Shown here: piece by piece, positions 3,497-12,831 of the stretch | Numbering within the stretch: the stretch's first letter is position 1 | Layout of the letters: the number at the start of each line of letters is the position of its first letter | From: a virus | Lineage: Duplodnaviria; Caudoviricetes | IMG/VR virus record: IMGVR_UViG_3300021400_000034 | Span: 128,001 to 192,000 of that record | Direction: 5' to 3' (one strand) | Length of the DNA stretch: 64,000 nucleotides | Made by a program: the position numbers and the translations under genes | The notes under the pieces: generated by a model | Database searches by the model: none | The model's input: the letters and a program-made list of their open reading frames with translations, nothing else | What the model was told of the DNA's origin: nothing

Positions 3497-3570
3497 GGAC
3501 CGGTAGCCCAACTGGCAGAGGCAGGGCACTCAAAACGCCCGCAGTGATGGTTCGAATCCATCTCGGTCCA
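3497..3570 (+). tRNA. tRNA-Leu(CAA), short variable arm
   Basis: Cloverleaf, loop CT-CAA-AA, GGTTCGAATCC. Confidence 0.8.
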
Positions 3571-3575
3571 CTTAT

Positions 3576-3649
3576 GGGGCTGCATGTACCAAGGCTGGCG
3601 ATGGATCTTAGCAAGATTCGTGAGAAGGGTTCGATTCCCTTCGGTTCCA
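3576..3649 (+). tRNA. tRNA-Ala(AGC)
   Basis: Loop TT-AGC-AA, G3:U70, atypical D arm. Confidence 0.7.
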
Positions 3650-3655
3650 CTACAT

Positions 3656-3729
3656 TAGGTCGTAGTTCTAATTGGCAGAACGCCTGGCCGTTAACCAGGA
3701 TGTTGCAGGTTCGAGTCCTGCCCTCCCAG
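3656..3729 (+). pseudogene. Degenerate tRNA-Asn(GTT)
   Basis: Good D/AC/T arms, C33, acceptor stem with 3 mismatches. Confidence 0.55.
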
Positions 3730-3736
3730 CTAATTT

Positions 3737-3810
3737 CAGCGTATAGCTCAGTCTGGTAGAGCGTTGGTTTCGGGTACCAAAGGTCGGTGGTTCGAATCCA
3801 CCTACGCTGA
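3737..3810 (+). tRNA. tRNA-Pro(CGG)
   Basis: Cloverleaf, TTGGT-TTCGGGT-ACCAA. Confidence 0.9.
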
Positions 3811-3846
3811 CTCTTTAGAAAAACTTTGAAAATGACAAAATTTGAC

Positions 3847-3875
3847 TTTACAAAACAGCTAAAAATTCCTATAAT
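3847..3875 (+). promoter_or_regulatory. Early (sigma70-type) promoter family TTTA(C/G)(A/G)-N17-TATA(T/A)T
   Basis: Same motif with -35 at 5241, 12934, 14855, 17371, 19860, 21784, 25355, 49043, 51698, 55057 (+) and 36732-36759 (16-nt spacer), 39642-39670, 41223-41251, 42093-42121, 43796-43824 (-). Confidence 0.75.
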
Positions 3876-3911
3876 ATATATGTAAAACTCTTAAAGAAAA
3901 GGACCTGAACT

Positions 3912-4253
3912 ATGAAATTCAGAATCGTCTACATCGGCAACACCCGCCACATCAAGGAACTCAAGGCTGCAGCCCAGGAATTCAACCCCACCGCCCGCTC
4001 TCAGTGGCTCGGGATCTGCTTCCCGGACGACGCGATCGAAGCTGAAGTCGAAAGCGTAGAAGAGGGCAAGAAGCTCATGGCCCACATCTACAAGAAGGTC
4101 AACTGCTTCCCGAAGAAGTACTCTTACGTGGACGGACCGGAATGGTGGTCCAACGACATGAAGCACTTCCTCGGCACTTCTGTCTGCTCCGACCGCTTCG
4201 ACTACGAGAAGCCAGTCACCGAAGAACACTTTGAAGACTTCTTGGAGGCATAA
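3912..4253 (+). CDS. Hypothetical early protein
   Basis: ORF after early promoter with AAGGACC RBS. Confidence 0.75.
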   Translation: MKFRIVYIGNTRHIKELKAAAQEFNPTARSQWLGICFPDDAIEAEVESVEEGKKLMAHIYKKVNCFPKKYSYVDGPEWWSNDMKHFLGTSVCSDRFDYEKPVTEEHFEDFLEA

Positions 4254-4537
4254 TGATCTGGAAGCGCTCTACATACAGTCACAGCGGAACGCTCGCTGTG
4301 TTCGCAAACGATGACGATGGCAGTCCTTACGGCGTCGCTACCGTATATCTGGAAGGGCAGAGCGAAACGCTCCCCAGAGACTGCGCATTCGTCGATACGA
4401 ACAACTGGCCAGACATCGTCGAGACGCTGGAGAAAGCCGATCTCGCTGAAGAGCTGATCGACTCCTATGGCTCTTCGGGATTCTGCGTCTATCCAGCGAT
4501 GCGCTTCAAGATCGAGAAGATCTCGGAAGCACGATAA
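4253..4537 (+). CDS. Hypothetical protein (DUF4313-like)
   Basis: PYG.ATV.L...AFVDTNN...SGFCVYP pattern. Confidence 0.55.
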   Translation: MIWKRSTYSHSGTLAVFANDDDGSPYGVATVYLEGQSETLPRDCAFVDTNNWPDIVETLEKADLAEELIDSYGSSGFCVYPAMRFKIEKISEAR

Positions 4538-4557
4538 ATTAAGTAGATTTGTTCTAC

Positions 4558-4631
4558 GCCCCGATAGCTCAGCTGGATAGAGCAACTGCCTTCTAAGCAG
4601 TAGGTCGCAGGTTCGAATCCTGCTCGGGGTA
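4558..4631 (+). tRNA. tRNA-Arg(TCT)
   Basis: Canonical cloverleaf. Confidence 0.92.
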
Positions 4632-4755
4632 CTACCGAGTCTAGCTCTCGACCTATATCCTCACACAAATATGGGTTTCCCTTAAACTAACATACTGCTA
4701 GACTCTGTCATGGTCTTCTCCGTTCCCATGAATAAAGAACCGAGACGCCTTTCAT

Positions 4756-4829
4756 GGATCTGTATGACAACTGGAATAGTCGAGGCGACTTTTAATCGTC
4801 GGATCTGGGTTCGAGTCCCGGCAGGTCCA
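4756..4829 (+). tRNA. tRNA-Lys(TTT)
   Basis: GGCGA-CTTTTAA-TCGTC, T arm. Confidence 0.85.
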
Positions 4830-4842
4830 CTAACATAGAACA

Positions 4843-5034
4843 ATGGAGATGAAGATGAAGAAAGACAAGAAAGAGCCTGAGACTTGGGAAGAGAAGAAGA
4901 ACCGCTGGGAGAAGCAGACGAAGAAGGCACTGTCTTTCGCTAAACAGAGCGGAATCGACGTCAAGAAGTTACAACGCGAACGAGCTAAGAACGAAGCTGA
5001 GAAGAGAGATCGATCTCGTTCGCAGTTCTTCTAA
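4843..5034 (+). CDS. Small basic hypothetical protein
   Basis: ORF between tRNAs with phage codon usage. Confidence 0.55.
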   Translation: MEMKMKKDKKEPETWEEKKNRWEKQTKKALSFAKQSGIDVKKLQRERAKNEAEKRDRSRSQFF

Positions 5035-5039
5035 GACAA

Positions 5040-5124
5040 GGCCACATGGCGGAACTGGTAGACGCTATGGACTTAAAATCCATTGAAGGTAATCTTCGTG
5101 AGAGTTCGAGTCTCTCTGCGGCTA
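5040..5124 (+). tRNA. tRNA-Leu(TAA)
   Basis: Type II cloverleaf. Confidence 0.88.
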
Positions 5125-5127
5125 TAC

Positions 5128-5219
5128 TGGGCAGTCGCCAAGTCTGGTTCAAGGCCCCGGACTTTGACTCCGGTAGAGAGGAAGTTCCTCCGTCAGTGGT
5201 TCGAATCCACTCTGCCCAA
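5128..5219 (+). tRNA. tRNA-Gln(TTG) with long variable arm
   Basis: CCGGA-CTTTGAC-TCCGG; extra GAGGA-agt-TCCTC hairpin. Confidence 0.8.
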
Positions 5220-5340
5220 TAAAAAATTCTAGAAATAGGGTTTAGAAACTGAACTTCAATTTCTATATTCTAATCATCGTCAATCGATGAGGCTCTTCCG
5301 AGAGAAGAACCAGCAAATTGAAATTTCGGCAATGACTTAT

Positions 5341-5414
5341 TCCACTCTAGCTCAATTGGTAGTAGCGGGCGGCTGTTAACCGCCAGGTTCCTGGTTCGAG
5401 TCCAGGGAGTGGAG
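5341..5414 (+). tRNA. tRNA-Asn(GTT)
   Basis: Canonical cloverleaf. Confidence 0.92.
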
Positions 5415-5415
5415 C

Positions 5416-5822
5416 TACACACGCGGTAATTGTTTTACAGTTTCTGCTTGGCGTGAGCATTCCTCCGTCCGGGGTGCCTTTTGAGCCCTCGGGTCGCGGT
5501 AAAAGAATGAAACTGGAGAGACTAAGTTGAAAAGGCTGCGATGTACCGCACAGGTGAAGTAAGTGCAACAACACTGGTTTCGAATTAAATGGCGAGGAGC
5601 CATCGAGAGAAGTCGAACTGTGGTAAGAGCAGAGGCTCTACGCTCTGGAGGTTGCATACTCCGGACGTGGACTACAAAGTGCATCCGATCGTCGCGGATA
5701 TTCTTCTTTCGATACGGGCAAATCGCAAGTCAGGAACAGTCATGCAAGACTCAGTACTGGCGAGCTCTTTAACGAGAGAGAACACTGCACTGAGGTCACC
5801 GCAGTCTAATCAAACCTCACCT
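5416..5822 (+). ncRNA. Large structured ncRNA candidate (possibly GOLLD/ROOL-like)
   Basis: ~400 nt between two tRNAs, no credible ORF, multiple helices (CAGTTTC/GAAACTG, TGAGGT/ACCTCA). Confidence 0.4.
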
Positions 5823-5823
5823 C

Positions 5824-5896
5824 GGGGCCGTGGCGCAATTGGTAGCGCATCAGATTTGCATTCTGAGGGTTGCGGGTCCGACTCCCGCCGGTTCCA
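5824..5896 (+). tRNA. tRNA-Ala(TGC)
   Basis: Cloverleaf, G3:U70, T loop TCCGACT. Confidence 0.85.
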
Positions 5897-5899
5897 CTA

Positions 5900-5960
5900 T
5901 AGATCCTAACAGCAATTCAAAGCACATTCCTGTTAAGAATCGAAAGCTAAAATGGATCTA
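5900..5960 (+). ncRNA. ACAGCAA-stem element E1 carrying an Asn(GTT) anticodon stem-loop
   Basis: TAGATCC/GGATCTA stem, TAACAGCAA, ATTC-CTGTTAA-GAAT. Confidence 0.7.
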
Positions 5961-5967
5961 GTCATTT

Positions 5968-6040
5968 CAGTCTGTACGTCAATTGGTAGACGGATGGTTT
6001 TGGGAACCATTAGTTGAGTGTTCGAGTCACTCCAGACTGA
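5968..6040 (+). tRNA. tRNA-Pro(TGG)
   Basis: Cloverleaf. Confidence 0.88.
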
Positions 6041-6161
6041 CTACTAAAAGAGGGACAAGAGGCTTCCACCTCCTGATCGAATTTCGTCGTTCGATCTCAC
6101 CTCTATACAATATGAGGATATGGAAGAATCCTCGTAAAAATAAAGATAACAGAGGCGAATT

Positions 6162-6944
6162 ATGATTTGCGAAAATTGCGGAAAAGAACATGACGGTTCT
6201 TACGGAAGTGGAAGATTCTGCTCTAGAGATTGCAGATTTTCTTATATAGGTAAACAGACTAACAAGAATGGTAAACATACTGGTCATCCTAATTATAATA
6301 CTGGAAGGACTCATTTTACTGCTTCACCAGATGGATGGAAATGCAAATGGTGTGATTTAGTCTTTAGAACTAGACGTGAACGTTCAAAACATTCAAATGA
6401 AGTTCATATACGCGATAAAAAGCATCCTTGGAATTATGGACTAACCAAAGATACTTCTAAAAAGGTAAAAGAGAGTACAGAATTAGTTAGGGAACTATAC
6501 AAAGCTGGAAAAATTCGTAAACCTGACAAAAAATTAGTATGGACGGAAGAGAGAAGACAAAGACAATCTGATAAGAAAAAGAAGTTTTATTCTGAACATC
6601 CAGAAGCACATCCAAATCGAAAATTAGCTAATAATCGTTCTAAGATGAGTTATCCAGAAAAGATAGTTTACGATTGGCTTACTGAGAAAAACATATCTTT
6701 TGAACATAATAAGCTGATAAGAACTAAAACTATTACGAGATATGTAGATTTTTATCTAAAAGACAATAATCTTATAATAGAAGTTGATGGAGAATTTTGG
6801 CACAATAGAAAGATTGAAAAAGATAAAAAGAAAGATTTTGAAGCCGAAGAAGCCGGTTATACTACTCTCCGAATAAAAGCAAAAGAGAGGATAATAGACC
6901 GATTAAATGACTTCTTCAGCTATCATATAAAAACGCTGGAATAG
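6162..6944 (+). CDS. Homing endonuclease (Zn fingers + DUF559/Vsr-like PD-(D/E)xK domain)
   Basis: CENC, CSRDC, CKWC; SYPE...VDFY...IIEVDGEFWH; AT-rich; stop lies inside the next tRNA. Confidence 0.75.
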   Translation: MICENCGKEHDGSYGSGRFCSRDCRFSYIGKQTNKNGKHTGHPNYNTGRTHFTASPDGWKCKWCDLVFRTRRERSKHSNEVHIRDKKHPWNYGLTKDTSKKVKESTELVRELYKAGKIRKPDKKLVWTEERRQRQSDKKKKFYSEHPEAHPNRKLANNRSKMSYPEKIVYDWLTEKNISFEHNKLIRTKTITRYVDFYLKDNNLIIEVDGEFWHNRKIEKDKKKDFEAEEAGYTTLRIKAKERIIDRLNDFFSYHIKTLE

Positions 6945-7007
6945 CTCAGCTGGTAGAGCAGGGCTTTCGTAAAGCTCAGGTCGGCAGTTCGAGCCTGTCT
7001 TCCAGCG
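6935..7007 (+). tRNA. tRNA-Thr(CGT)
   Basis: Cloverleaf. Confidence 0.88.
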
Positions 7008-7019
7008 CTACTGAAATTA

Positions 7020-7142
7020 GAGATGGTAACAGCAATTCTCTTTAGGCTGGTAACCTCGTGGTCGCGGGTTCGAGTCCCGTCTGGTCAGTCTCCGGATTGA
7101 TCGGTAGCTCAGTTGGTAGAGCACGTACAAGAAATCCATCTC
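7020..7142 (+). ncRNA. Element E2: circularly permuted tRNA(GGT)
   Basis: GAGATGG/CCATCTC stem, AACAGCAA; 3' piece 7044-7088 precedes 5' piece 7098-7125. Confidence 0.8.
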
Positions 7143-7148
7143 GTCTTT

Positions 7149-7222
7149 GGTGCCGTGGTGAAGTGGCCTAACACATCGGTCTGTCTAACCGACATACGCG
7201 AGTTCGAATCTCGCCGGCATCG
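7149..7222 (+). tRNA. tRNA-Asp(GTC)
   Basis: Cloverleaf. Confidence 0.88.
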
Positions 7223-7225
7223 CTA

Positions 7226-7555
7226 TGATCTGAAGGAGAGACTCTAGCAATAGTGGAGTCGCTATCCTTGCAAAGGCCGCTACATTGAGCGTTACTTCGC
7301 CGTCAATTGGATCCAATGGAAGGACGCTTACTGGTTGATCAGCAGAAGTCAATTCGACGTCAACATGATGTCACCGACGAAGGCTGTGATGGAGTCAGGG
7401 GAGAGCATAGGCATAAGCATCCTGGCCCGGCCGCTGGAATCTCGAATTCATTTCAACCATCGAACGAGTCCGATGGTTCTATCGCGAAAAATAACGGCAT
7501 AAGCGCGAGACAGGTAAAGTCTTCGGTCACAAGACTATAAATGACCGGCCGTACA
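7226..7555 (+). ncRNA. Unknown ~300-nt structured RNA
   Basis: 5' TGATCTGAAGG pairs with TCTTCGGTCA (7520-7529); internal hairpins; between tRNAs. Confidence 0.4.
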
Positions 7556-7556
7556 A

Positions 7557-7640
7557 GTCAGCTTCGGATAGCGGCAATTCCAGGAGACTGTAAATCTCCT
7601 GCCTTAACGGGCTTCGTAGGTTCGAGTCCTACAGCTGGCA
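7557..7640 (+). tRNA. tRNA-Tyr(GTA)
   Basis: Type II cloverleaf. Confidence 0.9.
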
Positions 7641-7647
7641 CTAATCC

Positions 7648-7823
7648 ATAGCGTCTGAATTCAAGTACGTATCTTCGTAGCTCAGTTGGTAGAGCGCAGG
7701 CCGAGAGGGCCTGAGGCGGTGGTTCGAGTCCATTCGTCGACCGTGAAGAGGGGGAGGCTTGGAGAGGATATCGGTTGAACTGTGAACTCGAGATAGCTTT
7801 TCACTCTTATCCTCAGCGCTATT
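7648..7823 (+). ncRNA. tRNA-like domain nested in a larger closed RNA
   Basis: Outer ATAGCG/CGCTAT stem; canonical D and T arms; AC loop lacks U33; poor acceptor stem. Confidence 0.55.
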
Positions 7824-7825
7824 AT

Positions 7826-7898
7826 GCTGGAATAGCTCAATTGGCAGAGCGTCGCCTTTGTAACGCGAGGGTTGGGAGTTCGATTCTCTCTTCCAGCG
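7826..7898 (+). tRNA. tRNA-Thr(TGT)
   Basis: Cloverleaf. Confidence 0.85.
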
Positions 7899-7959
7899 CT
7901 ATAATGAAAAGAATTGTAAAAGTTTTCTAAATCTTGGCTTTATCGATATAAATAGACAG

Positions 7960-8589
7960 ATGGTTCACTACACTGTCTATAAGATAACAAATCTTCTAAA
8001 CGGGATGATCTACATCGGTAAGCACAAGACGGAGAATCTGGACGATTCTTACATGGGATCTTCTGAGTGGTTGAAGTCTTCTATCAAGAAGCACGGAATA
8101 GAGAACTACAAGAAAGAGATTCTATTCGACTTCGAGACAAAAGAAGAGATGGACTTGAAGGAGAAAGAGCTAGTCAACGAAGAGTTCGTCAGACGCAAAG
8201 ATACATACAATCTGAACACTGGCGGAACTGGAGGCTGGTTCGCATGTAACAGCTCTGGTCTGAATCATTCGGCTGGTCAACATCTTCTCTCAGGCGAGAG
8301 ATGTCGGAAGGATCCAGAATACCGGAAGAAGTTCTGCGAGAAAGTGAGCGAGGGACTAAAGAAATATTACGAAGATCCAGAACATCGTCTCTATGGCGTC
8401 AAGAACCCTAGATACGGAATTCAGCTCACTCCGGAAGAGAAAGCGAGACTCAGCGCATCTCATTCTGGAAAGAAGAACGGTTCTTACGGTTCGCACTGGA
8501 TAACGAACCCGAAGCTGAAGAAGAACATGAGACTGAAAGGACTTGTGAAACTTCCAAGAGGTTGGAAGTTCGGAAGAAAGAAGTATTAA
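7960..8589 (+). CDS. GIY-YIG homing endonuclease (Seg-like)
   Basis: VYKITN..NGMIYIGKH...YMGS...YNL; late promoter at 7947. Confidence 0.9.
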   Translation: MVHYTVYKITNLLNGMIYIGKHKTENLDDSYMGSSEWLKSSIKKHGIENYKKEILFDFETKEEMDLKEKELVNEEFVRRKDTYNLNTGGTGGWFACNSSGLNHSAGQHLLSGERCRKDPEYRKKFCEKVSEGLKKYYEDPEHRLYGVKNPRYGIQLTPEEKARLSASHSGKKNGSYGSHWITNPKLKKNMRLKGLVKLPRGWKFGRKKY

Positions 8590-8592
8590 CGA

Positions 8593-8664
8593 CGCGGAGT
8601 GGAGGAGTGGTTTCCTTGAAGGGTTCATACCCCTTAGACCCCGGTTCGAGTCCGGGCTCCGCTA
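8593..8664 (+). tRNA. Initiator tRNA-fMet(CAT)
   Basis: C1 mismatch, three G-C pairs in the anticodon stem. Confidence 0.8.
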
Positions 8665-8669
8665 CTAAT

Positions 8670-8935
8670 TTTAGTCAAGTCAATGTCGGGCCGTTTGACT
8701 CGCGCTTCGATGTAACGACATACTTGGCAAGGCGTCAGTGAAGTGATGGCCATCGCGGATCTTTCGCCGGATCTTTTAAAGCGTAGCGCATGTACCGATA
8801 GAGATCTCCTGAGGTTGCGAACTCTCTTGATCTTGACAAGCAGGTAGCTTCGGTCCCGTCGTTGAGACGGTGCAAAAAGTCTCAGTCGTCGCAACGGCTG
8901 TGATCGCGGTTCGAATCCGTCGTGCGTGACACAAT
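8670..8935 (+). ncRNA. Unknown ~260-nt structured RNA ending in a T-arm-like hairpin
   Basis: Hairpins, TGAGAC/GTCTCA alternative pairing, GCGGTTCGAATCCGT near the 3' end. Confidence 0.35.
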
Positions 8936-8938
8936 TTA

Positions 8939-9037
8939 GAGATACCGACAGCAATTCATTGTTAGTGGTTCGAATCCATAAGCTGAATAGCTGCGGTCTG
9001 GCGCAAGTCAGATGGGCAATACAAACAGCGGTATCTC
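8939..9037 (+). ncRNA. Element E3: T-arm-first degenerate permuted tRNA-like payload
   Basis: GAGATACCG/CGGTATCTC stem, ACAGCAA, GTGGTTCGAATCCAT followed by two hairpins. Confidence 0.7.
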
Positions 9038-9042
9038 GTCAT

Positions 9043-9114
9043 GGTCCCTTCGGCCAGTGGTTAAGCCATCGCACTTTCTATGCGAGGACCCCAGTTCGAC
9101 TCTGGGAGGGACTA
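9043..9114 (+). tRNA. tRNA-Glu(TTC)
   Basis: Cloverleaf. Confidence 0.88.
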
Positions 9115-9229
9115 CTAAGAGTGACTCGGTGGGTGTTCGCGGCTGATAGTCCTAACACACCTCCGGCAACACTTCGAACTAGATGACTAGCTACTGCGAC
9201 GAGTTCGAAGGAGAACACTCTTCGTTTTT

Positions 9230-9299
9230 GAGATAGGTACAGCAATGATCACCAACTCTGCTCCATCATGCGGTTCGTGGCGTTAGGCCACTCTATCTC
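9230..9299 (+). ncRNA. Element E4 (payload unclear)
   Basis: GAGATAG/CTATCTC stem, GTACAGCAA. Confidence 0.65.
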
Positions 9300-9366
9300 G
9301 TAAACTTGGGTGCGCGGTCGGAGGAAGCCCTCCGGAGTTTCTCAATTCTCGAAAAATTGATCATAT

Positions 9367-9439
9367 CCCGGTATAGTTCAGTTGGTAGAACAGCTCCTTC
9401 ATACGGAGACGGTCGCAGGTTCAAGTCCTGCTATCGGAA
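9367..9439 (+). tRNA. tRNA-Met/Ile2(CAT)
   Basis: Cloverleaf, loop TTCATAC. Confidence 0.78.
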
Positions 9440-9445
9440 CTATAT

Positions 9446-9518
9446 GCCTCGCTGGCGCAATTGGTAGCGCAAGGCACTCTTAATGCTTGGGTTGAAGGTT
9501 CGAGTCCTTCGCGGGGTA
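9446..9518 (+). tRNA. tRNA-Lys(CTT)
   Basis: Cloverleaf. Confidence 0.9.
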
Positions 9519-9646
9519 CTAAAATCTATCTCATGCTTATTAAGCTACGGCATGAGCTCTAGCTATGTTTCGTCCGAGAGCCATCAGGTATAAAAAGCGG
9601 TCAGGGCACGGTTCTTGCTCTAAAGCGGTCGCTAGCATGAACTTTT

Positions 9647-9719
9647 CTCCGGTTAACTCAGCGGTTAGAGTGCCATCCTTACAAGTTGGAAGTCCGGGGT
9701 TCGAATCCCTGATCGGAGA
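9647..9719 (+). tRNA. tRNA-Val(TAC)
   Basis: Cloverleaf. Confidence 0.88.
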
Positions 9720-9725
9720 CTACTA

Positions 9726-9793
9726 AAGATCCTAACTGCAAATTTCTTATAACATCCGATTGGTAATCAGACTACGTTAGAAAAATGGATCTT
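9726..9793 (+). ncRNA. Element E5 carrying a Thr(GGT) anticodon stem-loop
   Basis: AAGATCC/GGATCTT stem, TAACTGCAA, TCCGA-TTGGTAA-TCAGA. Confidence 0.68.
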
Positions 9794-9804
9794 GAAATTT
9801 TTAT

Positions 9805-9878
9805 CGGCATCTAGCGCAATTGGTTAGAGCACTGCTCTGATAAGGCAGAGGTTTTTGGTTCAAGTCCAAGGTTGCCGA
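9805..9878 (+). tRNA. tRNA-Ile(GAT)
   Basis: Cloverleaf. Confidence 0.85.
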
Positions 9879-9882
9879 CTAA

Positions 9883-9938
9883 GAGGTTCTTACAGCAATT
9901 CTACAATCTTCTTTTTGGTTAAGAAAAAAAGGAATCTC
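9883..9938 (+). ncRNA. Element E6 carrying a Pro(TGG)-like anticodon stem-loop
   Basis: GAGGTTCT/GGAATCTC stem, TACAGCAA, TTCTT-TTTGGTT-AAGAA. Confidence 0.62.
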
Positions 9939-9944
9939 GATTAT

Positions 9945-10018
9945 CCACCTATAGCTCAGAACGGTAGAGCGGAAGACTGAAGATCTTCGCGTCGGAGTCT
10001 CGAACCCTCCTAGGTGGA
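9945..10018 (+). tRNA. tRNA-Phe(GAA)
   Basis: Cloverleaf with atypical T loop. Confidence 0.8.
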
Positions 10019-10027
10019 CTACAATAT

Positions 10028-10109
10028 CCCCTCGTGGCGGAACTGGTAGACGCGCCTGACTTAGGATCAGGAGCCGAGAGGCGTGCAGGTTCGAGTCCTG
10101 CCGAGGGGA
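10028..10109 (+). tRNA. tRNA-Leu(TAG)
   Basis: Type II cloverleaf. Confidence 0.92.
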
Positions 10110-10113
10110 CTAT

Positions 10114-10223
10114 AAGATAACAGACAGCAATCATCTACCCCAAAGCGGCTATGTTGGTGAAAGTCCAGCCGTCGATGTATGTCGGCGTCATCTAATCTAG
10201 GATTCCGCTCAAAATGTCATCTT
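10114..10223 (+). ncRNA. Element E7: permuted tRNA opened in the anticodon loop (Gly CCC-like)
   Basis: AAGATAACA/TGTCATCTT stem, GACAGCAA; AGCGG-T arm-acceptor hairpin-D arm-CCGCT. Confidence 0.7.
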
Positions 10224-10229
10224 GACTAT

Positions 10230-10303
10230 ACTCCGTTGGTGTAATGGACTTAGCATACGGGCCTACGAAGCCCTTGATCCAAGTTCGAATCTTGGACGGA
10301 GTA
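10230..10303 (+). tRNA. tRNA-Arg(ACG)
   Basis: Cloverleaf. Confidence 0.88.
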
Positions 10304-10315
10304 CTATTCCATGAT

Positions 10316-10436
10316 TAGATCCAAACTGCAACTCTCAAATCGTTACCATCAATCAACGGCCAAGCATCTCGGGATGCGCCTAGCTACATGGACTGGGAGA
10401 GGAGGGTTCGAATCCCCGGAAAATGAATCGGATCTA
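10316..10436 (+). ncRNA. Element E8 with a T-arm-containing payload
   Basis: TAGATCC/GGATCTA stem, AACTGCAA, GGGTTCGAATCCC. Confidence 0.65.
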
Positions 10437-10623
10437 GCTAAGCTCTCGATGCTGCTGACATTACGTCTAAATCGGAAAAACGCTATTCCATGTCTCGTGA
10501 AAGATATAAGCGAGAAGCAAGATAGTTAGCTCTGCATCGTCGATGCTAAGAGAGACGATGTCGTCATATATCCTCTGAACGGTCTTCGAGACAAGCGCTA
10601 AATCAACGCACAGGATAAATTAA

Positions 10624-10696
10624 GCTGACGTGCCGAAGTGGGAACGGAGGAGTCTGCAAAACTTTCTATGAGTGGGTTCGATTCCTACCGTCAGCT
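10624..10696 (+). tRNA. tRNA-Cys(GCA)
   Basis: Cloverleaf, U73. Confidence 0.88.
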
Positions 10697-10701
10697 CTAT
10701 A

Positions 10702-10811
10702 CAAGATGTCAACCGCAATTCCTTTCCAGGGTAGCTCTAGAGGTAGAGCACCGTCCTTGAGGCGGAAGAAGCTGGTTCGATCCCAGCCCCGGGAGCACAG
10801 ACGGCATCTTG
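10702..10811 (+). ncRNA. Element E9: whole tRNA-like payload with a 5-nt anticodon loop
   Basis: CAAGATGTC/GGCATCTTG stem, AACCGCAA, CCGTC-CTTGA-GGCGG. Confidence 0.7.
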
Positions 10812-10822
10812 ACAATTTAAAT

Positions 10823-10906
10823 CGGGCTATTACCTTGGGCCGGACTCATAACCCGGGCCGTTAAAATCCAGGGCGGTGCGGAGAGGTTCGACTCCTCGTG
10901 GCCCGA
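10823..10906 (+). tRNA. D-armless tRNA(CAT)-like RNA with long variable arm
   Basis: CGGGCTA/TGGCCCG acceptor, CTCATAA loop, T arm, no D stem. Confidence 0.55.
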
Positions 10907-10909
10907 TAA

Positions 10910-10994
10910 GGAGGACTACACTAATTGGTAAGTGACCACGGTGCTAACGTGGCGCCTCGAAAGAGGCTTCCAGGTTCGAGCCCTGGGTCCTCCG
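10910..10994 (+). tRNA. tRNA-Ser(GCT)
   Basis: Type II cloverleaf. Confidence 0.88.
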
Positions 10995-11076
10995 CTAAAG
11001 ATCTTAGGAGTCGTTGCCCTAAGCAACGTGGAGCGCACGCGCCGGTACCGTCCAGAGCCGTCAAATCTGGACTTTT

Positions 11077-11167
11077 GGAAGTGTGCCAGAGTCTGGCTTA
11101 TCGGACCGGTCTTGAAAACCGAGGGCGGTACCCATTCCGCACGGGGGTTCGAATCCCTCCACTTCCT
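11077..11167 (+). tRNA. tRNA-Ser(TGA)
   Basis: Type II cloverleaf. Confidence 0.88.
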
Positions 11168-11172
11168 CTATC

Positions 11173-11243
11173 GCGTCCTTGATGTAGTGGTAGCACTTCT
11201 CATTGCCTGTGAGAAAGCGCCAGTTCGAATCTGGCAGGACGCT
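11173..11243 (+). tRNA. tRNA-Gly(GCC)
   Basis: Cloverleaf. Confidence 0.85.
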
Positions 11244-11266
11244 TACTTTTCTATATTTAAAATACA

Positions 11267-11348
11267 GAGATAGACACAGCAATCCTTTTGGATAACGTAA
11301 TGATCTGCAAAATCAAAGCTAGACGGTCCAAATCCGTCAATCTATCTC
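11267..11348 (+). ncRNA. Element E10: Cys(GCA) anticodon arm + T-like arm
   Basis: GAGATAGA/TCTATCTC stem, CACAGCAA, TGAT-CTGCAAA-ATCA, GACGG-TCCAAAT-CCGTC. Confidence 0.7.
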
Positions 11349-11356
11349 GTTCATAA

Positions 11357-11427
11357 GCACCACTGGTCTAAAAGTATGATCAAACTCTTCCAAAGTTTGG
11401 GAACCGGGGCAGTACCGGTGTGGTGCT
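11357..11427 (+). tRNA. tRNA-Gly(TCC)
   Basis: Cloverleaf with atypical T loop GGCAGTA. Confidence 0.75.
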
Positions 11428-11430
11428 CTA

Positions 11431-11545
11431 GAGATTCCAACAGCAAACTCTGGTTTTTTCCGCCGTTGGGAAAATAGCTCAATTGGTAGAGCGCTCGTCA
11501 CTATGACGAGAGGTTACGGGTTCGAGTCCCGCTAAAGTGAATCTC
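11431..11545 (+). ncRNA. Element E11: tRNA permuted between T arm and acceptor
   Basis: GAGATTC/GAATCTC stem, AACAGCAA; acceptor hairpin, then D, AC and T arms. Confidence 0.72.
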
Positions 11546-11552
11546 GTCTTTT

Positions 11553-11626
11553 GGCTCTGTCGAATAACTGGTTCAGTTCGTTAGCCTCTCAAGCTAGAAA
11601 TTCGGGTTCAAGTCCCGACAGAGCTA
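11553..11626 (+). tRNA. tRNA-Glu(CTC)
   Basis: Cloverleaf. Confidence 0.88.
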
Positions 11627-11632
11627 TACATC

Positions 11633-11706
11633 CCCGCAGTAGTGTGAATTGGTTAGCACGCCTGCTTGTGGCGCAGGAAGTTCGGGTTCGAATCTCGGCT
11701 ATGGGA
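11633..11706 (+). tRNA. tRNA-His(GTG)
   Basis: Cloverleaf; no encoded G-1, A73. Confidence 0.8.
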
Positions 11707-11844
11707 CTAAGTCACTGATGAAGATGATGTAAGTAAGCCCGTCCAAGGTAGATCCTTTTGGGGCTAGTGCAGTAGCATAAGTTGCGGTATAGAGGCTGAG
11801 AATGCGTACAGGATAGCTCAGTAATGCGTCATCAGAGACTTTCA

Positions 11845-12225
11845 ATGATAGGCACAGCAACTCTAACACGTTCAATACATCAAATGCTGACGTGCAGAGC
11901 TACGGGAAATTGCCTTGATCGACGAGGACAGGGCCATGGTCGAGCAGCGCAGCTGAATCTCGATCACCTTGACGGACGGTCAGAACGTTCGTCTAACTTC
12001 CGGGCAGACTGCTCGGTAAGATCTTGCCCGTCTCTGATAGTTCCAAGACGAAGAACTTGGTGCTTGCTCTAATAAGTAAGGAGATAGTGCTGGTGACACC
12101 AGATAGCGTCAATGAGAAACCGTTGACTGATCTTTTGTAAGCTGCTATTCGAATCAAGAGAGAAGCGACACGAAGCAGCGGAGACTGAAAAGACAGCAAA
12201 CTCTAATCGGTCTCGTCCCTATCAT
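11845..12225 (+). ncRNA. Element E12: ~380-nt element with hairpin-dense payload
   Basis: ATGATAGG/CCTATCAT stem, CACAGCAACTCTAA. Confidence 0.55.
12181..12214 (+). ncRNA. Element E13: minimal empty element nested in E12
   Basis: GAGACTGA/TCGGTCTC stem, GACAGCAAACTCTAA. Confidence 0.55.
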
Positions 12226-12231
12226 GTTTTC

Positions 12232-12302
12232 TGCCCGTTGGTATAACGGTATTACACCTGACTCTGACTCAGGTGACGGTGGTCCGACTCCATCACGGGC
12301 AA
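12232..12302 (+). tRNA. tRNA-Gln(CTG)
   Basis: Cloverleaf. Confidence 0.85.
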
Positions 12303-12420
12303 TATGGAATGATAAGGTTCAGCCTCTGTTCTAGAGATCGGTGAATTCGCGACACTTCATCGAGATCGAGAACTACCACCAGCACGATCTGTCTTCGAAG
12401 CGGATCAAAAGAGGCATTCT

Positions 12421-12492
12421 AGGGAATTCGTATATCGGTTATTACGGCGGTCTCCAAAACCGTTCAGCTCTGTTCGACTCGGAGATTCCCTG
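12421..12492 (+). tRNA. tRNA-Trp(CCA)
   Basis: Cloverleaf. Confidence 0.85.
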
Positions 12493-12495
12493 CTA

Positions 12496-12624
12496 GAGAT
12501 TCTAACAGCAGAACGGTCTGTAAAACCGTTGGCTTTCGCCTTCGCAGGTTCGAATCCTGTCCACCTCCATACGAGGAGGTGTGCCCGAGCTGGTCAAAGG
12601 GGACGGTCCGCTAAAATGAATCTC
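12496..12624 (+). ncRNA. Element E14: circularly permuted tRNA-Tyr(GTA)
   Basis: GAGATTC/GAATCTC stem, AACAGCA; AC-V-T arms, CACCTCCA, linker, GGAGGTG, D arm; ACGGTC duplicated. Confidence 0.8.
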
Positions 12625-12629
12625 GTTCT

Positions 12630-12714
12630 CCTCCGGTACCCGAATTGGTATAGGGGCCTGCTTGAGGGGCAGGTGGGCGATATGCCCGTGAGAGTTCAAG
12701 TCTCTCTTGGAGGA
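12630..12714 (+). tRNA. tRNA-Leu(GAG)
   Basis: Type II cloverleaf. Confidence 0.88.
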
Positions 12715-12831
12715 CTAAAGTTTGTTCTTGCAAGGCGGACTCCGTCAATTAAGTCAATCATGTCGAGATGGACATGGGACGACGGAGGACGTGACCCCCT
12801 GCTCGGTGTCAGGCTAAAACGCCGCTATTTG

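What the first reader, a model, noticed from the sequence alone, without database searches (positions are those of the whole stretch)
7020..7142. Circularly permuted tRNA(GGT) that reconstitutes a complete cloverleaf
Seen: joining 7098-7125 (TGATCGG..D arm..ACG) to 7044-7088 (AGG-CTGGTAA-CCTCG..T arm..CTGGTCAG) gives a full 5-bp anticodon stem CGAGG/CCTCG with the break at 28/29. The acceptor ends are linked by GTC-TCCG-GAT. No ordinary Thr(GGT) gene is in the array, and the acceptor looks more Asn-like than Thr-like. Established: permuted tRNA genes are known in some algae and archaea via BHB splicing. No clear BHB is present here, and I know of no phage example.
Basis: partly seen in the sequence, partly recalled or inferred. 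Interest (0 to 1): 0.85.

Follow-up and report, generated by a model that had tools for sequence, protein, structure and literature searches.

The report
Rotated tRNA mimic on Ro60 handle
A small RNA gene in a large cattle-gut phage is shaped like a complete tRNA written in rotated order and clamped by a conserved end-stem; it is most likely a Y-RNA-type tRNA mimic that partners the phage's own Ro60-like protein, not a gene for a working threonine tRNA.

Summary
Joining 7098-7125 to 7044-7088 gives a canonical cloverleaf with anticodon GGT. The acceptor ends are closed by a 10-bp helix capped by UCCG, and a 7-bp stem (7020-7026/7136-7142) encloses everything.

The "permuted tRNA gene" reading is only partly supported. 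The order (hairpin, T arm, closed acceptor, D arm, end-stem) is that of YrlA-type bacterial and phage Y RNAs. Rfam YrlA matches 7057-7125 below its cut-off.

The end-stem plus ACAGCAA "handle" recurs on about 12 cassettes in this tRNA array, with partial or no tRNA cargo. It recurs almost letter for letter in the 5' leader of a DUF2828/DUF7788 gene beside Rnl1. That protein's model matches only Ro60 structures over its full length.

In other contigs, ACAGCAA tRNA-like elements lie 15-2105 nt from DUF2828 genes on the same strand. Thirty-seven family members support the split fold by covariation.

Two positional orthologues keep the architecture, and one also keeps the handle and acceptor sequence. 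Their "anticodons" are TAT and GAT. The acceptor does not resemble this phage's own tRNA-Thr genes. No BHB motif is present, and no junction contig was found.

Earlier notes of this scan on the same genome gave the handle and DUF2828 leads; I re-tested them. Nothing comparable was noted on other DNA.

Verdict: a new variant of a known kind.

The parts
7020..7026 (+). Handle, 5' arm (GAGATGG) of the closing stem
   Evidence: Pairs with 7136-7142 in the MFE fold. The same 7-mer pair closes the stem-loop in the DUF2828 gene leader, L133:5740-5792. RAGAT.../...ATCTY stems recur on the other cassettes of the array.
7029..7035 (+). Handle motif ACAGCAA, unpaired, 2 nt after the 5' arm
   Evidence: 10 of the window's 18 exact copies lie in 5.9-12.2 kb of the tRNA array on the + strand. 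There each of 9 follows a 6-9 bp closing stem, while the copy at 11854 has none, and 2-3 variant-motif cassettes add to the family. Only 1 of 6 copies tested outside the array has a stem, and 16% of random positions do. The motif sits in the same place in the DUF2828 leaders of two relatives.
7036..7043 (+). Leader spacer between the handle motif and the tRNA-like body
   Evidence: Read from the sequence. Unpaired or weakly paired in the fold.
7044..7056 (+). Anticodon-like hairpin AGG-CTGGTAA-CCT (tRNA positions 29-41), the 'V' stem-loop of YrlA nomenclature
   Evidence: Hairpin pairs show compensatory changes across 37 relatives. In orthologue L180 the hairpin is GTC-CTTATAA-GAC and in L148 GTC-CTGATAA-GAC.
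7057..7058 (+). C42 G43, pairing in trans with C27 G28 (7124-7125) to complete a 5-bp anticodon stem
   Evidence: 86.5% of cells paired in 37 sequences, with 17 and 9 double-sided changes. Swap control: 25 of 39 observed against a mean of 4.2 and a maximum of 9.
7059..7080 (+). Variable loop TGGTC and T arm (GCGGG-TTCGAGT-CCCGT)
   Evidence: Rfam YrlA alignment. Nearly invariant in TROVE-linked and DUF2828-linked elements.
7081..7104 (+). Closed acceptor stem: CTGGTCA / TGATCGG (7 bp), extended by G.U, U-A and C-G pairs and capped by tetraloop UCCG (7091-7094)
   Evidence: 7/7 pairing is rare by chance. Acceptor pairs are 92.6% paired in the family, and 6 of 7 show compensatory changes.
7105..7125 (+). 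U8 A9, D arm (GCTC-AGTTGGTA-GAGC), A26, C27 G28
7126..7135 (+). Trailer spacer TACAAGAAAT; the UA after the trans pairs and the A-rich run before the 3' arm recur in the family
7136..7142 (+). Handle, 3' arm (CCATCTC)

Best explanation
7020-7142 encodes a Y-RNA-like small RNA of the YrlA type.

Structure. A conserved handle (an end-stem formed by the RNA's 5' and 3' parts, plus an unpaired ACAGCAA) carries a tRNA-shaped module. The module's parts are in rotated order: anticodon-like hairpin, T arm, an acceptor stem closed by a stable tetraloop, then the D arm. Two trans base pairs (7057-58 with 7124-25) stack on the hairpin. The body is therefore a full cloverleaf with the handle emerging from the anticodon stem at 28/29.

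Shown here:
- the fold and its covariation in a family;
- the shared handle;
- a Ro60-fold protein (DUF2828/DUF7788 with a MIDAS motif) encoded next to Rnl1, a P-loop kinase and phosphoesterases, with a copy of the same handle in its leader;
- genomic linkage of such RNAs to DUF2828 genes in other contigs.

Inferred:
- The RNA is released from the tRNA-array transcript when the flanking tRNA-Thr(CGU) and tRNA-Asp are processed.
- The handle binds the Ro60-like ring.
- The tRNA-shaped module presents a tRNA elbow and a variable anticodon loop to a tRNA-recognising factor. That factor could be a host anticodon nuclease (the RNA acting as decoy) or the phage's heal-and-seal enzymes or a host exonuclease (the RNA acting as tether, as Y RNA does for PNPase).
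- It is not charged and does not decode.

Whether RNase P opens the acceptor, as in M. smegmatis YrlA, is open. I put it near 30%, because the stem is a 10-bp helix with a UNCG-type cap.
For: - cmscan places YrlA (RF02553) on 7057-7125, E 5.6e-7.
- blastn finds the same T-arm/closed-stem/D-arm unit, unannotated, in Mycobacterium phage Phabba and in Vibrio phage BONAISHI. The BONAISHI unit scores 59.3 bits for YrlA and sits upstream of a TROVE + vWA_Ro60 gene.
- In IMG/VR, 38 of 50 records with such closed-stem units encode TROVE. The units with a CAGCAA leader do not, but 5 of 5 encode DUF2828, against 0 of 15 other records.
- The own genome has no TROVE. It does have a DUF2828 + DUF7788 protein right after Rnl1.
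- The AF2 model of that protein has pLDDT 83 and pTM 0.82. Its 11 best PDB matches are all Ro60/Rsr/phage Ro60 over the full length, E 5e-7 to 9e-4. It shares phrog_850 with the BONAISHI TROVE protein.
- The gene's leader holds GAGATGG-tc-ACAGCAA...CCATCTC. This is kept in a relative at 74% protein identity. In one at 58% identity the stem has changed but still pairs.
- About 12 handle cassettes lie in the array.
- In the metagenome scan, 11 elements in 9 loci have a DUF2828-like ORF on the same strand at 15-2105 nt.
- Covariation: 91.2% of cells paired against 69.8% shuffled; score 0.537 against 0.151; 0 of 500 shuffles reach it.
- Literature: phage Ro60 binds phage Y-like RNAs and host PNPase (PMC12135203). 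Jumbo phages carry ROT/TROVE with a tRNA-like partner (PMC7824862).
Against: - The Rfam score is below the gathering cut-off (38.2 against 69), and a plain tandem tRNA pair in the same window scores 29.7.
- The GNCGAA Ro-binding motif of YrlA is absent.
- This copy lies about 71 kb from the Ro60-like gene, not within 4 kb.
- Sequence-level homology of DUF2828 to TROVE is weak: hhalign gives 55% probability over the MIDAS stretch only, and there is no PDB hit by sequence. Fold TM-scores are moderate (0.31-0.55).
- No binding, expression level or RNA ends were measured.
- The full set of tRNA tertiary-interaction bases and a canonical C-U-NNN-A-A loop is more than a mere scaffold would need.
Confidence: 0.7

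Rival explanations
1. It is a true permuted tRNA gene. Leader and trailer are cut off at 7043/7044 and 7125/7126. The ends are healed and sealed by the phage kinase, phosphatase and Rnl1. The acceptor is opened by RNase P and a 3' nuclease, CCA is added, and a working tRNA(GGU) results.
For: A complete cloverleaf with all conserved tertiary bases. No ordinary tRNA-Thr(GGT) in the array. The phage encodes Rnl1, a second RNA ligase, a P-loop kinase, phosphoesterases and a CCA-adding-type enzyme. 10.1101/312249 raises this possibility for YrlA RNAs.
Against: - Positional orthologues carry TAT and GAT, one of them on the same acceptor and handle.
- The acceptor has U1-A72/G2-C71, unlike this phage's tRNA-Thr genes.
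- The same handle flanks cargo that cannot form a tRNA, and also an mRNA leader.
- There is no BHB at the junction. No bacterial enzyme is known that cuts there (own knowledge).
- The linker is a stable tetraloop-capped helix.
Confidence: 0.06
2. The handle is not a protein-binding site for the Ro60-like protein. It is instead a processing or mobility boundary, such as a nuclease site or the edge of an exchangeable cassette. The tRNA-shaped cargo then acts on its own as a decoy or sponge for host anticodon nucleases or tRNA-modifying enzymes.
For: - Anticodon loops vary freely between orthologues while the C-U-NNN-A-A frame is kept.
- The Lys-type loop CTTTTAA is the commonest in the family, 6 of 27.
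- One metatranscriptome contig of a relative joins tRNA-Thr directly to tRNA-Asp without the cassette.
- Homing-endonuclease-like genes sit in the array.
Against: The handle sits in the leader of the Ro60-like gene in three phages, with compensatory change. The elements are tightly linked to DUF2828 genes on the same strand elsewhere. This is the pattern that defines Y RNA / Ro60 pairs.
Confidence: 0.17
3. It is a dead relic of a rearranged tandem tRNA pair with no function.
For: YrlA-like order can arise from two neighbouring tRNAs, and Rfam YrlA also hits a tandem pair. ARAGORN still reads a vestigial first tRNA in 14 TROVE-linked elements.
Against: - It is kept at the same position between tRNA-Thr(cgt) and tRNA-Asp in two diverged relatives, with compensatory changes in the hairpin and acceptor.
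- There is family-wide covariation.
- The 10-bp closed acceptor is far beyond chance.
Confidence: 0.03

Closest known systems
YrlA-type Y RNAs of bacteria and phages with Ro60/Rsr (Rfam RF02553; Chen et al. 2014, PMC4201824; Wang et al. 2018, 10.1101/312249)
   Same: The order is V hairpin, T arm, closed acceptor-like stem, D arm, enclosed by a stem made of the RNA's two ends. The T and D arm sequences are nearly identical. A UA follows the closing pairs. The partner gene encodes a Ro60-fold ring with a vWA/MIDAS domain and sits among RNA-repair genes.
   Different: The handle motif is ACAGCAA, not GNCGAAN0-1G. The partner is DUF2828/DUF7788, not Pfam TROVE. This copy is about 71 kb from the partner gene, inside a tRNA array. 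The phage carries about a dozen handle RNAs with different cargo. The hairpin plus two trans pairs here make a complete 5-bp/7-nt anticodon arm. The score is below the Rfam cut-off.
Thermus phage phiLo Ro60 with Yrl1/Yrl2 (PMC12135203; PDB 9KOP, 9L5Y)
   Same: A phage-encoded Ro60 ring and phage-encoded Y-like RNAs with a 5'-3' stem and an unpaired motif. This is the best structural match of the DUF2828 model.
   Different: The phiLo RNAs lie just upstream of the gene, carry a CGAA motif and are not described as tRNA-shaped. Sequence identity to the protein here is 14%.
Circularly permuted tRNA genes of red and green algae and one archaeon (Soma 2007; Maruyama 2010; Chan 2011, as cited in 10.1101/312249)
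   Same: The 3' half is encoded before the 5' half. The acceptor ends are joined by a short linker. The leader and trailer are paired next to the break.
   Different: Those have a BHB motif cut by the splicing endonuclease, then ligation to a circle, and they give conserved working tRNAs. Here there is no BHB, the break lies inside the anticodon stem, the anticodon is not conserved among orthologues, and the setting is bacterial/phage.
M. smegmatis YrlA (PMC4201824)
   Same: A seven-base-pair acceptor-like stem. That RNA is cut by RNase P and receives CCA in vivo while staying bound to Rsr as two pieces.
   Different: Here the 7-bp stem continues for 3 more pairs and ends in a UCCG tetraloop, which may block opening. 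This was not tested.

Membership tests
YrlA (Y RNA-like A; RF02553 / Chen 2014) | tRNA-like module: conserved T arm, closed acceptor-like stem-loop, conserved D arm, in that order | tested here: met
   cmscan alignment of 7057-7125 to model positions 24-84. Fold. Same T and D sequences as TROVE-linked elements.
YrlA (Y RNA-like A; RF02553 / Chen 2014) | Score at or above the Rfam gathering threshold | tested here: not met
   38.2 bits against 69. A tandem tRNA pair in the window scores 29.7.
YrlA (Y RNA-like A; RF02553 / Chen 2014) | GNCGAAN0-1G motif near the 5' end (presumed Ro60 contact) | tested here: not met
   7009-7043 has no such motif. ACAGCAA stands at the equivalent place.
YrlA (Y RNA-like A; RF02553 / Chen 2014) | Encoded within 4 kb of a Ro60 orthologue, on the same strand | tested here: not met
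   No TROVE in the genome. The Ro60-fold DUF2828 gene is about 71 kb upstream on the same strand. A sister handle lies in that gene's leader. Other family members lie 15-2105 nt from DUF2828 genes on the same strand.
Y RNA / Ro60 RNP in the broad sense | Stem formed by the 5' and 3' ends with a conserved unpaired motif, kept by covariation | tested here: met
Y RNA / Ro60 RNP in the broad sense | A Ro60-type ring protein (HEAT-repeat ring plus vWA/MIDAS) in the same genome | tested here: met
   AF2 model. Foldseek top 11 hits are all Ro60. phrog_850 is shared with a TROVE protein. A DGSGS MIDAS motif is present. By sequence profile alone the link is only weak.
Y RNA / Ro60 RNP in the broad sense | Physical binding of the RNA by the Ro60-type protein | not testable with these tools
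   Needs EMSA, pull-down or CLIP.
Circularly permuted tRNA gene | 3' half precedes 5' half and the two rejoin into a canonical cloverleaf | tested here: met
Circularly permuted tRNA gene | Bulge-helix-bulge motif at the junction for the splicing endonuclease | tested here: not met
   The flanks of 7043/7044 and 7125/7126 form no 3-nt bulge / 4-bp helix / 3-nt bulge.
Circularly permuted tRNA gene | Anticodon and identity elements conserved among orthologues, as for a decoding tRNA | tested here: not met
   GGT here, TAT in L180, GAT in L148 at the same array position. U1-A72/G2-C71 here against G1-C72/C2-G71 in the phage's tRNA-Thr genes.
Circularly permuted tRNA gene | Mature ligated tRNA or circular intermediate detectable | tested here: inconclusive
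   Contigs of four metatranscriptome runs show no ACG|AGG joint and one colinear piece, 7064-7214. Contigs cannot show rare or small RNAs.

The most novel reading that the evidence does not exclude
The ACAGCAA handle marks RNAs for cut-and-join by the neighbouring heal-and-seal enzymes (kinase, phosphatase, Rnl1), with the Ro60-like ring as platform. Leader and trailer are removed at 28/29, the ends are sealed, the closed acceptor is opened and CCA is added. The phage would thus make working tRNAs, with swappable anticodons, from rotated genes. That would be a BHB-independent permuted-tRNA pathway in bacteria and phages.
Probability: 0.05. Interest if true: 0.9.

Novelty: new variant of a known kind. 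Interest (0 to 1): 0.6.

Why it matters
Y RNAs with a tRNA-shaped module are known, but their effector and purpose are still open. This locus offers three things.

- A second, previously unnamed Ro60-type partner family (DUF2828/DUF7788), with no relevant literature in the library searched, and its own handle motif.
- A phage that carries about a dozen handle RNAs among its tRNAs. This one displays a complete tRNA body.
- Orthologues in which only the anticodon hairpin has been swapped.

That pattern points to recognition of anticodon loops: by host anticodon nucleases, by modification enzymes or by repair enzymes. It gives a concrete, testable system for what tRNA-mimicking Y RNAs do in phage-host conflict. 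It also cautions against annotating such elements as split or permuted tRNA genes.

Tried and rejected
- **RNA evidence.** Contigs of four bovine-gut metatranscriptome runs were laid on 6800-7400. Most pieces are 19-21-nt matches of other organisms' ordinary tRNAs to the T and D arms. There is no ACG|AGG joint. One colinear low-depth contig covers 7064-7214, and DNA carry-over cannot be excluded. This says nothing about processing.
- **ARAGORN on permuted joins as a significance test.** Too lenient: 7 of 32 chimeric controls gave a call. I replaced it with pairing statistics.
- **Orphan reading.** My first reading was an orphan YrlA without any Ro60, based on Pfam TROVE being absent. I dropped it after finding DUF2828 and its fold.
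- **RtcB.** Absent from the genome.
- **Close relatives by a neighbouring protein.** The query 790-1794 found none in IMG/VR.
- **The 247-kb relative behind L140.** It could not be searched because the record is not held.
- **Sequence search of the DUF2828 protein against PDB.** Nothing.
- **hhalign of its family against one TROVE protein.** Only 55% probability over the MIDAS stretch.
- **Recent duplicate of an array tRNA.** Rejected: the best identity is 54 of 73, the usual tRNA background.
- **Promoter or terminator of its own.** None flanks the element.
- **Papers not held.** PMC5062991 and PMC10870794.

Full report
**Setting.** The window is bases 128001-192000 of a complete 243,336-bp virus record with direct terminal repeats. 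Half or more of the sampled words of 6800-7400 are held by gut and bovine-gut metagenome runs from several studies. ARAGORN finds 33 tRNA genes at 3497-12715, all on the + strand. The finding lies in the 140-nt gap between tRNA-Thr(cgt) (6935-7008) and tRNA-Asp(gtc) (7149-7223).

**Observation.**
- Joining 7098-7125 to 7044-7088 gives a 73-nt sequence that ARAGORN draws as tRNA-Thr(ggt), with 7/7 acceptor pairs, a 5-bp anticodon stem CGAGG/CCUCG and loop CUGGUAA.
- U8, A14, G18 G19, A21, T54-T55-C56, A58 and a G15/C48 pair are all present.
- The acceptor strands are joined through G73 by a further G.U, U-A and C-G pair and a UCCG tetraloop, giving a 10-bp hairpin.
- A 7-bp stem, GAGAUGG (7020-7026) with CCAUCUC (7136-7142), encloses the whole.

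ARAGORN on artificial joins is lenient: 7 of 32 chimeric controls gave a call. I therefore used pairing statistics. A 7/7 chimeric acceptor occurs in 3 of 1056 combinations of this array's tRNAs, and neighbouring tRNAs reach at most 5/7. No array tRNA is a close paralogue.

**It has the architecture of YrlA-type Y RNAs.**
- cmscan puts Rfam YrlA on 7057-7125 at 38.2 bits and E 5.6e-7, below the 69-bit cut-off. A plain tRNA-Asn/tRNA-Pro pair scores 29.7, so this alone is not proof.
- blastn finds the same unit, unannotated, in Mycobacterium phage Phabba (inside its tRNA array) and in Vibrio phage BONAISHI.
- The BONAISHI unit scores 59.3 bits over the whole YrlA model. It lies about 110 nt upstream of an 'RNA binding protein' that Pfam reads as TROVE + vWA_Ro60.
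- Chen et al. (PMC4201824) define YrlA by a GNCGAAN0-1G motif, four stem-loops (V, T, AS, D) and a position within 4 kb of Rsr. They show that the M. smegmatis RNA, with a 7-bp AS, is cut by RNase P and receives CCA.
- Wang et al. (10.1101/312249) solved the tRNA-like module and note its likeness to circularly permuted pre-tRNAs.

**The anticodon-like hairpin is a family feature.**
- A pattern scan of IMG/VR for T loop, 10-34 nt, then D arm gave 120 loci.
- 56 unique elements have 6-7 acceptor pairs and a D arm outside any ordinary tRNA call, though ARAGORN reads the T-arm side of 14 of them as a tRNA.
- Most carry, just before the variable loop, a short hairpin with a 7-nt loop, mostly C-U-NNN-A-A. 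Together with 0-5 trans pairs to the strand after the D arm it makes exactly 5 bp. This is the 'V' stem-loop of Chen et al.
- ARAGORN even reads 14 of these elements as ordinary tRNAs from their 5' part. That fits the proposed origin from dimeric tRNAs (10.1101/312249).
- 38 of 50 records holding such elements encode TROVE.

**This element belongs to a sub-family with a different handle and a different partner.** My first search found no TROVE in the genome. Earlier notes of this scan on the same genome pointed to a family of ACAGCAA cassettes and to a DUF2828 protein in an RNA-repair island, and I checked both.

*The cassettes.* The array holds about 12 cassettes with a 6-9-bp closing stem (mostly RAGAT.../...ATCTY), ACAGCAA or a near variant 0-5 nt inside the 5' arm, and an A-rich run before the 3' arm. 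They are at 5900-5960, 7020-7142, 8939-9037, 9225-9355, 9726-9793, 9883-9938, 10113-10224, 10315-10437, 11267-11348, 11431-11545, 12181-12214 and 12496-12624. Their cargo ranges from nothing, through a lone anticodon hairpin, to tRNA parts in native or rotated order. Of the six + strand ACAGCAA copies outside the array that I tested, only one has a stem, which is the chance rate (16% of random positions).

*The partner gene.*
- At genome positions 58-64 kb lie a metallophosphoesterase, a P-loop kinase (AAA_33/KTI12), a HAD-like protein, Rnl1 and then a DUF2828 + DUF7788 protein.
- Homologues show that its true start is MSFYSEM, at L133:5823.
- In the leader, L133:5740-5792 reads GAGATGG-tc-ACAGCAAtt...aaatt-CCATCTC. 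This is the same stem and motif as in 7020-7142.
- The leader element is kept in a 247-kb relative whose protein is 74% identical.
- In a relative at 58% identity the stem is CTAGGTGCC/GGCATCTAG, around the same ACAGCAA.

**The partner has the Ro60 fold.**
- An AlphaFold2 model from a 40-sequence alignment has mean pLDDT 83.2 and pTM 0.82.
- Its 11 best PDB matches are all Ro60 proteins over the full length: Thermus phage phiLo Ro60, Xenopus and human Ro60, and D. radiodurans Rsr. E-values run from 5e-7 to 9e-4 and TM-scores from 0.31 to 0.55. Isolated vWA domains follow only after these.
- The protein has a DGSGS MIDAS motif.
- It falls in phrog_850 together with the BONAISHI TROVE protein.
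- Sequence profiles alone connect the two only weakly.

**Linkage elsewhere.**
- Among IMG/VR records with closed-stem elements, all five with a CAGCAA leader encode DUF2828. None of 15 others does.
- A metagenome scan for ACAGCAA + T loop + D arm gave 39 loci.
- 11 elements in 9 loci have a DUF2828-like ORF on the same strand at 15-2105 nt. One locus has three tandem elements in front of the gene.
- This is the criterion that defined YrlA / Rsr pairs, met by a different protein family.

**The split cloverleaf is conserved.**
- On an alignment of 37 family members, the structure I named has 91.2% of cells paired, against 69.8% in shuffles and 30-49% when slid. That structure is the hairpin, the trans pairs 27-28/42-43, the T stem, the acceptor and the D stem.
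- The covariation score is 0.537 against 0.151 (0 of 500 shuffles reach it).
- The trans helix is 86.5% paired, with 17 and 9 double-sided changes. Six of seven acceptor pairs show compensatory change.
- Swapping upstream parts between elements destroys the trans fit: 25 of 39 observed, against a mean of 4.2 and a maximum of 9.

**Orthologues argue against a decoding tRNA.**
- In L180 the element lies between tRNA-Thr(cgt) and tRNA-Asp(gtc), in the same gene order as here. It has the same handle and the same acceptor linker, but the hairpin is GTC-CTTATAA-GAC.
- In L148 the element precedes tRNA-Asp after Thr(cgt) and Phe. Its hairpin is GTC-CTGATAA-GAC and its acceptor is different but still paired.
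- The 'anticodon' is therefore GGT, TAT or GAT on one scaffold, with all three hairpin pairs exchanged compensatorily.
- The acceptor here (U1-A72, G2-C71, G73) matches the array's tRNA-Asn genes. It does not match its tRNA-Thr genes, which have G1-C72 and C2-G71. By my own knowledge those two pairs are ThrRS identity elements in bacteria.
- There is no BHB at the break.

**Mechanism proposed.** No promoter or terminator flanks the element. I therefore infer that it is cut out of the array transcript by the processing of its tRNA neighbours. The handle is then bound by the Ro60-like ring, and the tRNA-shaped module engages a tRNA-recognising factor.
- The gene neighbourhood (kinase, phosphoesterases, Rnl1) points to the response to tRNA damage. 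So do the known roles of Ro60 / Y RNA with PNPase (PMC12135203, PMC4201824) and the remark on jumbo phages in PMC7824862.
- The freely changing loop in a fixed C-U-NNN-A-A frame favours display of anticodon loops as bait or adaptor. The Lys-type loop CTTTTAA is the commonest in the family.
- The phage also encodes a CCA-adding-type enzyme. Opening of the acceptor as in M. smegmatis is possible, but the tetraloop-capped 10-bp helix makes it less likely.
- Binding, RNA ends and function are all inferred, not shown.

**Verdict.** It is best filed as a new variant of the YrlA / Ro60 kind, with an ACAGCAA handle and a DUF2828-type Ro60. It is not a permuted tRNA-Thr gene, and the true-tRNA reading keeps about 5-6%.

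Noticed in passing
window 5900-5960, 8939-9037, 9225-9355, 9726-9793, 9883-9938, 10113-10224, 10315-10437, 11267-11348, 11431-11545, 12181-12214, 12496-12624: Eleven further cassettes with the same closing stem + AC(A/T)GCA(A) handle. Their cargo differs: a lone anticodon hairpin, T-arm pieces, a D-anticodon-T body without an acceptor, a rotated Tyr-like body, or a 34-nt minimal element.
   Followed up: partly
L133:5740-5792 (genome about 62.74-62.79 kb), 30 nt before the start codon of the DUF2828/DUF7788 gene: A minimal handle-only stem-loop with the same 7-bp stem and ACAGCAA as the finding, conserved in two relatives. It could be a minimal Y-like RNA or an autoregulatory operator.
   Followed up: partly
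L133:1080-7319 (genome about 58.1-64.3 kb): A block of metallophosphoesterase, P-loop kinase, HAD-like protein, Rnl1 and Ro60-fold protein. These are heal-and-seal activities encoded as separate genes. A second RNA ligase (PF09414 with an OB fold) is at L127:799-2115.
   Followed up: partly
window 6162-6944 and 7960-8589: Homing-endonuclease-like ORFs inside the tRNA array: DUF559/Vsr-like and GIY-YIG SegE-like with NUMOD3.
   Followed up: no
window 6981-7145: One low-depth metatranscriptome contig (run X16) joins a diverged tRNA-Thr directly to the tRNA-Asp flank and skips the whole cassette. Some relatives may lack it.
   Followed up: no
L003:1460-1600 (Mycobacterium phage Phabba) and L004:1276-1395, 1478-1589 (Vibrio phage BONAISHI): Unannotated YrlA-like elements in published phage genomes. 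Phabba's lies in its tRNA array with hairpin CTC-CTGTCAA-GAG. BONAISHI has two in tandem before its TROVE gene.
   Followed up: partly
L169:5003-5490: Three tandem ACAGCAA/GCAGCAA tRNA-like elements with different anticodon-like loops (CTCGAAA, TTGCTAA, TTCTTAA), 415-804 nt upstream of a DUF2828-like gene.
   Followed up: no
IMG/VR loci such as L040, L114, L122 (TROVE-linked elements): ARAGORN YrlA-like elements as ordinary tRNAs by using their 5' Ro-binding strand as acceptor and D arm. This is a likely source of mis-annotated phage tRNAs, and it supports a dimeric-tRNA origin.
   Followed up: no
genome about 118.8-119.2 kb (L181): A CCA-adding-type nucleotidyltransferase (PF01743, 100 bits, 410-aa frame) is encoded by the phage. 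ARAGORN's calls show CCA after the discriminator at only one of the 33 array tRNAs.
   Followed up: no
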